From positions 106,206,001 to 106,270,000 of the forward strand of contig NC_058377.1 in assembly GCF_018350175.1 (NCBI RefSeq): a DNA stretch of 64,000 bases, given 5' to 3'. The notes under the pieces are model-generated. The model saw only the letters and a program-made list of their open reading frames with translations. It did no database searches and was not told where the DNA came from. The stretch's first letter is position 1; each line of letters opens with the position of its first letter. Source of the DNA: Felis catus. Lineage: Eukaryota. The position numbers were made by a program, and so were the translations under genes. Positions 12,926 through 15,900 of the stretch are shown in pieces.

Positions 12926-15900
12926 GGCTGCGCAACGACTGTGGTTCGCGGCCGGCGTTTTGGCTCTGCGCAGAGTCAGCGTAGGCCCCGCCCCTCGGCC
13001 TCCGCGAGCCAATCGCAGCCCAGGGGCGGGTACTGAGGGTATATAAAGCAGCTCGGCGGCGTCCTAGTTCTCTCCCCGGACGGCGAAAAAGTAGGTGCGT
13101 AGGTAGGTTTCGGAGCTACGAGGCCCGGCGGGGGTTCTGGGCGGGGCCTGCGCACCCTCCTTTTCTTGGCGGGGGCCGGGTGTAAGGTCCCGGCCCCCGT
13201 AATGTACGGAGGCAGAGGGAAAGGGCTCTGGCCCCTCGGCGTCATGTCTTCGGTGCCCGCGGCTTCCGGTCCGCGGGTTCTATCCTCAACCGCCGGGACA
13301 CCGGCTCCAAGGAGCCCAGCGGAACCGAGGTTCTGCAGGCTCCTCCTTGGGGTGCTCACGACTTCTCCTTTTATTTCAGGTTTGGGGAGCCGCCCCTGGA
13401 ACCGGAGCTGTCGTGTCCCCCTCCTCTTTTAATTTACCGTTGCCAACAATAAAGGCCTTTCCTGCCGTAGTAAGTGTGTGTCCGCGTTTTTTCCATGGTT
13501 GTCATTAGGCTGTTCGCGTTATCCCACAAAGCGGAATTTGCAACCTTTGTCTTGGACCTCAGGCTCCTTCGGGAGTGCGGGCGACATTTCGCAGAAGGTT
13601 CTCTGGCCGACCTTGCCGGGATCTCCAGATGGCCGCGCTGCGAGCAACTCTCCACGTGGCGACCCTGGCGGCTGGGGCGCGCCGAGCTTTGTTGGGTAGG
13701 GAAGGTAGGCAGAGTGGGAGGGCAAGGCGGGTTCTTAGTGACCCTAATCCCTGAAATTGTGATTCTTCAAACCCCAGGGTATATTGCGCCGGTTTTTTTT
13801 TTTTGTTTTGTTTTGTTTTGTTTGTTTGTTTGTTTGTTTTGCAGCAATCTGATGAAACTTGGGCGCTGGGTGACACATGTGCCCCACTCGTGTCCACAGG
13901 CTCCCTGGCTGGTAACTGCCTGGCCCACCGTCGCCTCTGGGATAAGCTCCACAGCGGTCCCCGAGTCGGCAGCGTCCCCACGTTCGACTGGTTCTTTGGG
14001 TATGAGGAAGCCCAGGGGTTCCTACTGCCGCTGCTGCAGGAGGCACGGGCTGCCTATCCACTGCGGGTGTTGGACGTGGGCTGTGGGACCTCCAGCCTAT
14101 GTACAGGTCTCTACACCAAGTGTCCAGTTCCCGTGGATGTGCTGGGGGTGGACTTCTCTCCTGTGGCCGTGGCCCACATGAACAGCCTCCTGGAAGGTGG
14201 CCAAGACCAAATACCCCTGTACCCTGGGCACCCTGCCTCTCGACTACAGTTCATACAGGCTGATGCCCAGAACCTGGAGCCCGTGGCTCCCTCAGGCTCC
14301 TTCCAGCTAGTGCTGGATAAGGGCACCTGGGATGCTGTTGCCCGGGGTGGTCTGCCTGGGGCTTACCAGCTTCTGTCAGAATGCCTAAGGGTCCTAAGCC
14401 CCCGGGGGACCCTGATTCAGTTCTCCGATGAGGACCCTGATGTGCGGCTACCCTGCCTGGAGCAAGGGTCCCAAGGCTGGACTGTGACTGTGCAGGAGCT
14501 AGGCCCTTTCAGGGGCATCCCCTACTTTGCTTACTTGGTTCAAGTCTCTCATTAAAGACTTTAGTTCTAACTCTCATTTTTCTGTTGGGTGAGGAAAGAG
14601 GTGAAGAGAATTTTTTTCTTCTTTGTATGATGGCTGGGAAGTGAGGATCTTAGGGCTGGCCTCCATATTTTCTAGCCGCGTGCACATATTTGAATGTCTC
14701 CATGCCCCAGTTTACACCTCGGCAAGGTAGAAATAATAATAGGTGGAGTTGGGATTACATACAATGTCAGGTGAAACATTTAGCACTTAGCAATGCCAGG
14801 CACAAGATGAGTGCTAACTAGAGAAGGCTTCTAACCCCTACTAACTGGAATACCTATGGGCACAGATAGAGTTTCTGGGGGTTTTTTGTTTAAAGAGAGG
14901 AGTTCTTAATCCAAATCCCAGCACTGACTGACTGATGTGAGCCAGTGGCCCAACCTCTAAGCCTCAGTGTCCTCTACCTGTGAAAAGGGGAAGATTGATA
15001 GGACAGCCAGAAGGGCCTCCTAACAAACTTCACTGAAATGTTGAAGGAGAGAGAACAGATACTTACCCTCAAAGCTCCTGGGAGGCAGGAGGTGTGAATA
15101 TTCCACAAAGCAGCTTCTACACACATGGGAGCCTGTTGCTGGGTTCCAGAGAGGACAGGGGTTGGAGGCTTCCTGATACTCTGTGTCCTCAGGAATCCAG
15201 GAGACCTCTTGTTCTACCTGTTCCTGTCCCCAGCTGAGTTCTGGGTTAAAGGTTCTTAAGGGAGATCTGGGGTCCAGTGGGCTCCAAGTCCAGCCTGGGG
15301 GAGAGGAGAGTTGAAGAGCCCATTAAAAGTGAAAAGTATTCCTGGGGGCGTTTGGGTGGCTTAGTCGGTTAAGTGTCCTACTTCGCCTCAGGTCATGATA
15401 TCAGGTCCTTGAGTTTGACCCTCACTTCAGCTCTGTGCTGACAGCTCAGAGCCCGGATCCTGCTTCAGATTGTGTCTCCCTCTCTGCCCCTCCCATGCTC
15501 ACACTCTGTCTCTCTCTCTAAAAAATAAACATTAAATTAAAAAAAGTGAAAAGTATTCCTGATACATTACTGACTTTTTGAAAGATGAAGCAAATTAGTT
15601 TGATGTTTTTTTCTTTTGCTTATAAAAAAGTAATACAGCAATTGTAATTAAGAGCCTAATTTCATGGCCTCAGTTTTCTCATGAGGATAAAAGGGTCTCC
15701 CCCACTGAGTTCTGAAAATCATGGGATAAAAGTGTTTAGCACAGTTCCTGGCACACTGTAAGTCCTAATAAATAAGCTTTTATAACAGTATCAGACATGG
15801 GGAAAATTCTGGAAGAAAAGGCACCCAAAATACAACTTCCCTCTGGGTAGTCGATTTGGGATGATTTTATTACATTCCACACACACACACAACAAATGAC

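What the first reader, a model, noticed from the sequence alone, without database searches (positions are those of the whole stretch)
13040..13700. Candidate splice-versus-poly(A) switch between a short SNORA57 host RNA and CSKMT mRNA
Seen: TATATAAA (13040); a 5'TOP/TCT-like start CTCTCCCC exactly 30 nt later; the snoRNA intron ending at AG 13379; then AATAAA at 13448-13453 followed by a GU/U-rich element (gtgtgtgtccgcgtttttt). All of this lies upstream of the CSKMT ATG (13629). The expected cleavage window (~13468-13478) coincides with a consensus GTAAGT donor at 13470-13475. Established: U1 binding suppresses nearby poly(A) sites, and snoRNA hosts are often short TOP non-coding RNAs. Inference: most transcripts end as a ~120-nt host RNA that releases SNORA57, and CSKMT is made only when U1 occupancy or splicing overrides this signal. 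That would couple a mitochondrial methyltransferase to a ribosome-biogenesis-type promoter.
Basis: partly seen in the sequence, partly recalled or inferred. Interest (0 to 1): 0.72.

Follow-up and report, generated by a model that had tools for sequence, protein, structure and literature searches.

The report
Splice donor overlapping poly(A) cleavage site
A cat promoter makes a tiny spliced, polyadenylated RNA whose intron carries a small nucleolar RNA (this short RNA is already described in humans), and the mitochondrial enzyme gene CSKMT behind it is likely made from the minority of transcripts that escape the early poly(A) site, partly by splicing from a donor that sits on the cut point, as predicted gene models of horses, dogs, weasels and hyenas suggest.

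Summary
The short host RNA is real: 29 of 136 laid reads carry poly(A) tails at 13469/13473, 75 join exon 2 to exon 1, 2 run past 13480. The genome holds 6 spliced retrocopies of it and none of CSKMT mRNA. It is already in print as U99HG (Weber 2006; human 3'-end peak, Schurch 2014).

Not found in my searches: a splice donor on the cleavage site. Database CSKMT models splice from the 13470-equivalent in equids (9 of 41, 7 straight to the ATG acceptor) and from the 13474-equivalent in equids, hyenas, mustelids and canids (11 of 41); 15 read through unspliced; 6 are unclear. GTAAGT itself is not conserved, and no cat junction read was seen, in libraries with little power for it.

Best reading: default termination, with a small, mostly fixed leak to CSKMT by splicing or read-through. 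A regulated U1 switch is untested: human SNORA57 and CSKMT levels correlate (r 0.87), brain ratio 2.7-fold higher. The scan had not noted this elsewhere.

The parts
13040..13047 (+). TATA box, 30 nt before the start site
   Evidence: sequence; function inferred
13069..13077 (+). TCT/5'TOP-type start; +1 at about 13070
   Evidence: pattern match; retrocopy L003 begins at 13070; read loose ends carry these letters
13070..13102 (+). non-coding exon 1, ending at 13094 or 13102
   Evidence: retrocopies fit donor 13095 best, 6 of 6; loose-end consensus shows donor 13103 in 3 of 4 runs and a mixture in the fourth
13095..13379 (+). intron 1, hosting the snoRNA; acceptor with 81% pyrimidines
13156..13303 (+). 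SNORA57 (U99) H/ACA snoRNA
   Evidence: Rfam RF00191, 169.3 bits, model 1-149 of 149
13380..13473 (+). exon 2: terminal exon of the short RNA, internal 5'-UTR exon of CSKMT mRNA
   Evidence: depth 13-46 on 13384-13463, 0-1 beyond 13480; orthologue models join it to the CDS
13448..13453 (+). AATAAA of the proximal poly(A) site
   Evidence: kept in 6 of 6 retrocopies
13469..13473 (+). two cleavage/poly(A) positions (tails after 13469 and after 13473)
   Evidence: 20 and 9 reads with untemplated A tails; A-rich tail begins after the 13469 equivalent in 4 of 6 retrocopies
13470..13479 (+). tandem 5' splice donors, GT at 13470 (+16 from the hexamer) and GT at 13474 (+20); use in cat inferred
   Evidence: orthologue models: +16 in 9 equid models, +20 in 11 equid, hyena, mustelid and canid models; no cat junction listed
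13474..13492 (+). GU/U-rich downstream element, lost if the donors are used
   Evidence: sequence; function inferred
13495..13497 (+). upstream ATG, out of frame with CSKMT; opens a 160/163-codon overlapping uORF on read-through mRNA only
   Evidence: 6 felid models start here; effect on translation inferred
13561..13628 (+). candidate acceptors: AG ending 13562 (canid models), 13594/13597 (one donkey model, position approximate), 13628 (7 equid models)
13629..13704 (+). first coding exon of CSKMT (donors 13696 and 13705)
   Evidence: 240- and 243-aa isoforms in felids
13900..14555 (+). last coding exon of CSKMT (methyltransferase domain), with ATTAAA at 14551 over the stop

Best explanation
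One TATA/TCT promoter makes a two-exon RNA of 115-123 nt that is polyadenylated at 13469/13473 and has SNORA57 in its intron; this is likely the main product, and CSKMT mRNA likely comes from the minority of molecules that escape that site, either by splicing from one of two donors predicted to lie on the cleavage positions or by plain read-through to the donors at 13696/13705. SHOWN in cat: splicing of intron 1, the tails, very few reads past 13480, six processed retrocopies of the short form. SHOWN only as database gene models of other mammals: junctions from the +16 and +20 donors into the CSKMT exons. INFERRED: because donor and cut site are the same nucleotides, U1 paired at 13470-13477 would cover the cut site and the start of the GU element, so the two fates exclude each other on one molecule; splicing would delete the cut site, the downstream element and (in cats) the out-of-frame ATG at 13495, leaving an orphan AATAAA in the 5' UTR and the better-translated mRNA. 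The donors are weak (6-7 of 11 consensus matches, A at -1), so cleavage usually wins and CSKMT is a low, roughly proportional leak rather than an on/off switch.
For: Reads: 29 of 136 with poly(A) loose ends at 13469 or 13473 (3 of 4 runs), genomic sequence behind is not A-rich; 75 of 136 with exon-1 letters before 13378; 1 read each in two runs crosses 13480. Retrocopies: 6 copies of 13378-13469, all better explained spliced than unspliced, 4 of 6 with an A-rich tail from +16 and a flanking duplication of 16, 11, 8 and 9 nt; no copy of 13476-13720 or of the coding exon. Orthologue models, 41 of 185 proteins held cover the site: 9 equid models fit donor +16 (7 as IKAFRTV|MVALRR, straight onto the ATG acceptor), 11 fit donor +20 in four lineages; the dog junction is fixed by comparison with the unspliced canid model. 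Human: ESTs and a rhesus retroposon end 141 nt after the snoRNA (PMC1687206); direct-RNA 3' peak in the METTL12 5' UTR (PMC3983147); SNORA57 exceeds CSKMT 918- to 5944-fold in TPM with r 0.87 (PMC8176728 supplement row). Mouse keeps the host transcript and lacks CSKMT (PMC9006661).
Against: No junction from 13470 or 13474 is listed in cat reads (threshold 3 reads per run); the two reads crossing the site are unspliced. No felid model shows such a junction, and 6 felid models keep the would-be intron. The orthologue evidence is predicted models read through their N-terminal translations, not DNA alignments or junction counts; the junctions may be rare noise; 6 of the 20 spliced models jump to the last exon and skip the CSKMT ATG. 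All 7 bovid models read through. The libraries look like 3'-capture, so they give no short:long ratio. The human TPM ratio compares a stable snoRNA with a gene-level count.
Confidence: 0.55

Rival explanations
1. The donor is incidental. The short host RNA is the product, CSKMT mRNA comes from simple read-through of a slightly leaky poly(A) site, and the GT dinucleotides are by-products of the GU-rich downstream element, used only as splicing noise that annotation pipelines pick up.
For: 15 of 41 models read through (canids 5, bovids 7, pangolin-cluster contigs 3) and 6 felid models keep the region; both cat reads crossing the site are unspliced; GTAAGT is not conserved; 5 of 110 AATAAA in the window have such a motif behind them; acceptors differ from lineage to lineage.
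Against: Junctions at the same two positions recur in four lineages; 7 equid models from three species use the clean junction onto the ATG; in cats read-through mRNA carries an out-of-frame overlapping uORF.
Confidence: 0.27
2. A regulated switch: U1 availability or splicing factors change the share that escapes cleavage, so CSKMT dose is set by tissue or state independently of SNORA57.
For: Donor and cut site overlap; U1 at a nearby donor suppresses a promoter-proximal poly(A) site in HIV-1 and foamy virus (PMC3694450); human CSKMT:SNORA57 ratio is 2.7-fold higher in brain, 3 samples against 18, with no overlap.
Against: r = 0.87 overall; outside brain the ratio stays within 1.7-5.9 x 10^-4; the brain contrast was picked after seeing the data and may reflect low brain snoRNA or a general brain bias to distal sites (recalled); no perturbation data found.
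Confidence: 0.11
3. The choice is made at initiation: pyrimidine (TOP) starts give the short host and snoRNA, while canonical starts or a separate start site give CSKMT mRNA.
For: Human CSKMT is labelled DualInitiation; dual-initiation promoters of snoRNA hosts give RNAs of different fate (PMC6954239, abstract only); the CpG island runs to about 13800; bovid models have unrelated first exons.
Against: Orthologue models join exon 2 to the CDS; human RefSeq/Ensembl models all begin at the host promoter; no TATA or TCT motif between 13476 and 13628; a different first base would still have to pass the same poly(A) site.
Confidence: 0.07

Closest known systems
U99HG, the human host unit of U99/SNORA57 (Weber 2006, PMC1687206); U99HG is a listed alias of CSKMT/METTL12 (PMC8662637)
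   Same: Same locus; two-exon spliced ESTs ending shortly after the snoRNA intron; retroposons as witnesses; same RefSeq gene as CSKMT.
   Different: Section 9, which I read whole, treats it as a non-coding host and does not mention a donor at the 3' end or the relation to the methyltransferase mRNA. Its supplementary alignments were not readable.
Human METTL12 5'-UTR direct-RNA-sequencing peak (Schurch et al. 2014, PMC3983147)
   Same: A poly(A) 3' end inside the annotated 5' UTR, 138 nt after the snoRNA and 172 nt before the CDS (cat: 166 and 160 nt); not aligned here.
   Different: Read there as an unspliced 385-nt 'snoRNA57 precursor'; here most laid reads are the spliced 115-123 nt form.
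Composite terminal exons / premature cleavage and polyadenylation (PMC4227790, passages)
   Same: One exon either ends at a poly(A) site or is spliced onward.
   Different: There the signal lies in the intron behind the donor and the exon is extended; here the hexamer is exonic, the cut falls on the donor itself, and termination is the main fate.
U1 occlusion of the HIV-1 and foamy-virus 5' LTR poly(A) site (PMC3694450, abstract and passages)
   Same: Promoter-proximal poly(A) signal with a donor close by; in HIV-1 the donor is downstream of the signal.
   Different: HIV-1 donor is 195 nt away and suppression is nearly complete; here 16-20 nt, overlapping the cut, and the site is mostly used. 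U1 dependence not tested here.
5'TOP non-coding snoRNA host genes and dual-initiation promoters (PMC6954239, abstract; U17HG/GAS5/UHG recalled)
   Same: Pyrimidine start, tiny exons, no ORF, snoRNA in the intron.
   Different: A protein-coding gene hangs behind the host's poly(A) site; host and mRNA would be uncoupled by 3'-end choice rather than by decay or start-site choice.

Membership tests
SNORA57 (Rfam RF00191) | Full-length match above the family's gathering score | tested here: met
   169.3 bits against 40, model 1-149 of 149
CSKMT/METTL12 | Orthologous seven-beta-strand methyltransferase with the short N-terminal exon | tested here: met
   Spliced CDS identical to P0116; 110 hits at E <= 1e-40, named ones as CSKMT/METTL12-type or hypothetical; Pfam methyltransferase domains
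5'TOP/TCT non-coding snoRNA host RNA | Starts at C followed by a pyrimidine run (definition recalled) | tested here: met
   8 pyrimidines from 13070, TCT pattern; L003 starts at 13070; no CAGE available, so +1 is indirect
5'TOP/TCT non-coding snoRNA host RNA | Short, spliced, polyadenylated, no ORF, snoRNA in the intron | tested here: met
   115/123 nt, no ATG; spliced and tailed reads
5'TOP/TCT non-coding snoRNA host RNA | Growth-dependent TOP control or decay by NMD | not testable with these tools
   Human table lists host NMD susceptibility as False; nothing for cat
Composite terminal exon | [quoted passage not shown] | tested here: not met
   Hexamer is 16-20 nt upstream of the donors; cut at the boundary. 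Relative to the later donors 13696/13705 it is further upstream still
Composite terminal exon | The same exon is terminal in some RNAs and internal in others | tested here: inconclusive
   Terminal shown in cat; internal only in database models and 2 read-through reads
U1-occluded promoter-proximal poly(A) site | Suppression depends on U1 pairing at the nearby donor | not testable with these tools
   Needs U1 antisense, or donor mutants with compensatory U1
U1-occluded promoter-proximal poly(A) site | The site is largely silenced in normal cells | tested here: not met
   Site is used in 3 of 4 runs by tail reads and depth falls to 0-1 behind it in all 4

The most novel reading that the evidence does not exclude
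A tandem 5' splice site laid exactly over a poly(A) cleavage site, kept across several mammalian orders, works as a U1-versus-cleavage toggle that doses the citrate-synthase methyltransferase (higher in brain) while leaving SNORA57 output untouched: a protein-coding gene expressed as the regulated overflow of a TOP snoRNA host.
Probability: 0.17. Interest if true: 0.66.

Novelty: new variant of a known kind. Interest (0 to 1): 0.42.

Why it matters
It explains why CSKMT mRNA is scarce although its promoter supplies an abundant snoRNA, and why the gene could be lost in mouse and rat while the host RNA stayed. It warns that gene-level counts and 3'-capture counts for CSKMT may mostly measure a 120-nt non-coding RNA. 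The geometry (donor on the cut site, hexamer left in the 5' UTR) is a compact natural substrate, under 700 nt, for testing direct competition between U1 and the cleavage machinery on the same nucleotides. If the escape is regulated, it would tie citrate-synthase methylation to splicing state.

Tried and rejected
Metagenome scan with a short exon-2 pattern for mammalian orthologue DNA: 22 loci, 0 with a blastn match to 13310-13780 at E <= 0.01; so there is no DNA alignment across mammals, and conservation rests on protein models. Folding 13425-13520: z = 0.73, 152 of 200 shuffles fold as well; no structural switch claimed. Internal priming as the source of the tails: rejected, the genomic sequence behind 13469 is not A-rich. 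Reads coming from retrocopies: rejected, copies are 79-91% identical to the parent while 91 of 136 reads are at least 99% alike and the rest at least 95%. The read in run X22 that begins near 13562: from the binned depths it fits a 150-nt unspliced read (13562-13711), not a junction. Six models (5 bat or bat-cluster, 1 pangolin) are about 40 residues shorter than read-through but could not be assigned to a donor or told from genomic deletions; left out of the donor counts. Proteins whose last-exon anchor did not match my pattern (for example P0061) were dropped before the count of 41. Exact look-up of the partial ORF found nothing. Second protein search (P0032, residues 1-135) gave 4 hits, none new. 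Weber 2006 supplements held only 417 characters of text. PMC5663892 is not held. PMC13736004 has no mention of SNORA57, CSKMT or METTL12. Earlier scan findings: 4 shown by words, all fungal and unrelated; none by place.

Full report
OBSERVATION. All motifs are at the stated places, with small corrections listed under the observation check. SNORA57 is 13156-13303. The CDS from ATG 13629 spliced 13705-13899 is identical to a protein that NCBI names Felis catus CSKMT X3. The motif pair alone is weak evidence: 5 of 110 AATAAA in the window have GTRAGT starting 10-25 nt behind.

THE SHORT RNA IS REAL. A search of the own genome with 13000-13700 gave 8 matches of 8 candidates: the locus, one old copy of the 5' part with the snoRNA (L002) and six dispersed copies of 13378-13469 (same six). 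All six align better to exon 1 joined to 13380 than to the unspliced locus, and donor 13095 scores best among 6 candidate GTs in 6 of 6 (margins only 1-2 points for the three oldest). In 4 of 6 an A-rich run (70-87% A) starts 16 nt after AATAAA, with flanking duplications of 16, 11, 8 and 9 nt; L007 and L008 have no clear tail. L003 starts at 13070, the C of the pyrimidine run. No copy of 13476-13720 or of the coding exon was found (1 candidate each, the locus). Raw reads of 4 of the 24 listed runs (2 studies, 1-2% of each run) were laid on 13320-13780: 136 reads, all RNA on the + strand by mate direction in three runs and nearly all in the fourth; depth 13-46 on 13384-13463 and 0-1 from 13480; 29 reads with pure A tails (20 at 13469, 9 at 13473; none listed in X22); 75 reads whose loose 5' end carries exon-1 letters, ending at 13102 in three runs and mixed in the fourth. 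Median loose-end lengths of 54-62 nt fit exon 1 plus a roughly 30-nt template-switch adapter (length recalled), so these look like full-length short molecules in 3'-capture libraries. That means the drop in depth is not a short:long ratio. Dominance of the short form is inferred from the retrocopies (6 against 0) and from human data.

IS THE DONOR USED? In cat reads no joint is listed (threshold 3 reads from 2 starts); one read each in X20 and X22 crosses the site unspliced; one X20 read ends at 13696, fitting the coding intron. Such libraries barely sample a 5' UTR about 1 kb from the mRNA end, so this is weak. I had no mammalian genomes to align, but many database CSKMT models have N-terminal extensions that translate the 5' region, and these reveal the annotated splices. 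Of 185 proteins held (110 cluster representatives plus up to 15 members of each of 13 clusters, so no census), 41 cover the hexamer. Compared with the translations that each window junction would give: 9 equid models fit a donor 16 nt after the hexamer (window 13470), 7 of them straight onto the AG before the ATG (13628), one onto the last exon, one onto about 13597; 11 models fit a donor at +20 (window 13474): hyenas 2, equids 2 and badger 1 onto the last exon, canids 3 onto the 13562 equivalent, Mustela-cluster 3 onto an acceptor that the cat lacks; 15 read through (canids 5, bovids 7, unnamed contigs of the pangolin cluster 3); 6 are unclear. Counted as lineages: +16 in one, +20 in four. 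Codons at the 13470 equivalent are Gly in canids, Ile or Thr in mustelids and, in another frame, Thr in bovids, none of which allows GT there; equids and hyenas have GT but G at the fourth place. So GTAAGT itself appears only in the cat among those read (inferred, assuming no indel), while a donor on the cleavage site recurs. These are predicted models; that their introns rest on RNA-seq is recalled, not checked. Six felid models start at ATG 13495, inside the would-be intron, so read-through RNAs are modelled in cats too. That ATG is out of frame and opens a 160/163-codon ORF over the CSKMT start; leaders spliced at either donor have no ATG.

MECHANISM. Shown: start at a TCT-type C behind a TATA box (indirect), splicing of the snoRNA intron, cleavage at 13469/13473. 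Inferred: the two cut sites coincide with the two donor boundaries, so U1 and the cleavage complex cannot both act on one molecule; splicing removes cut site, downstream element and upstream ATG; the donors are weak (7 and 6 of 11 matches to a recalled consensus), so cleavage usually wins. Human numbers fit a leak: SNORA57 198-2180 TPM, CSKMT 0.06-0.73 TPM, r 0.87 over 21 samples of 7 tissues, Spearman 0.69, median ratio about 2900; brain ratio 2.7-fold above the rest, 3 against 18 samples, a contrast chosen after the fact. [quoted passage not shown]

WHAT IS KNOWN. PMC1687206 (passages and section 9 read; supplements unreadable): U99HG, spliced ESTs and a rhesus retroposon ending 141 nt after the snoRNA. 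PMC3983147 (section 27 read): human 3'-end peak in the METTL12 5' UTR, read as snoRNA precursor. PMC8662637 (passages): U99HG as alias. PMC9006661 (passages, section 12): enzyme function and distribution. PMC3694450 (abstract, passages) and PMC4227790 (passages): U1 occlusion and composite exons. PMC6954239 (abstract only). PMC8176728 (one supplementary row). PMC13736004 (term search, no mention). Searches that found no description of a donor at this site: SNORA57+METTL12 (1 paper), U99HG (3), CSKMT+polyadenylation (1, listing only), 5730408K05Rik (7, listings only), two of SNORA57/CSKMT/LBHD1/C11orf48 (8), mechanism terms (45, 15 listed). The library lacks most subscription papers, and genome-browser annotations may already show these isoforms.

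VERDICT. Observation confirmed; interpretation partly supported. The short host RNA is known; the donor-on-cleavage-site geometry and the reading of CSKMT as overflow are a new variant of known splice-versus-poly(A) competition, not shown in cat and not shown to be regulated. Interest 0.42.

Noticed in passing
L002 (G000:C39:24988197-24988396): Old retrocopy (76% identical) that runs unspliced from exon 1 through the snoRNA and ends in an A run just after the snoRNA's 3' end: the same odd 5'-extended type that PMC1687206 reports as peculiar to U99. It hints at a capped, unspliced precursor trimmed only at its 3' end.
   Followed up: partly
window 13095 and 13103: All six spliced retrocopies fit the exon-1 donor at 13095, while present-day reads mostly use 13103: a possible recent shift in donor use.
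   Followed up: partly
window 12608-12736, minus strand: Coding exon of C11orf98 (PDB 8inf chain 1, E 2e-19); the gene lies head to head with this promoter. Its role in pre-60S particles is recalled, not checked.
   Followed up: partly
window 14551-14556: ATTAAA overlaps the CSKMT stop codon; PMC3983147 reports a human 3' end 13 nt after the stop with ATTAAA upstream, so a very short 3' UTR may be shared.
   Followed up: no
window 13696, 13705, 13844: Second tandem donor pair and an alternative acceptor in the coding intron give 240- and 243-aa isoforms; the 306-aa cat model P0122 starts at ATG 13495 and lacks the normal N-terminal peptide, so it is probably not a mitochondrial form.
   Followed up: partly
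window 13408, 13447, 13365 and near 13076: Variant letters in reads (C>G at 13408 in 16 of 34 reads of one run; C>A at 13447, next to the hexamer, in 4 reads of two runs; a 3-nt deletion at 13365; C/G difference in exon 1). Alleles or errors; not tested against DNA runs.
   Followed up: no
P0027, P0161, P0162, P0164: Bovid CSKMT models begin with an unrelated first exon, so cattle may have another upstream start.
   Followed up: no
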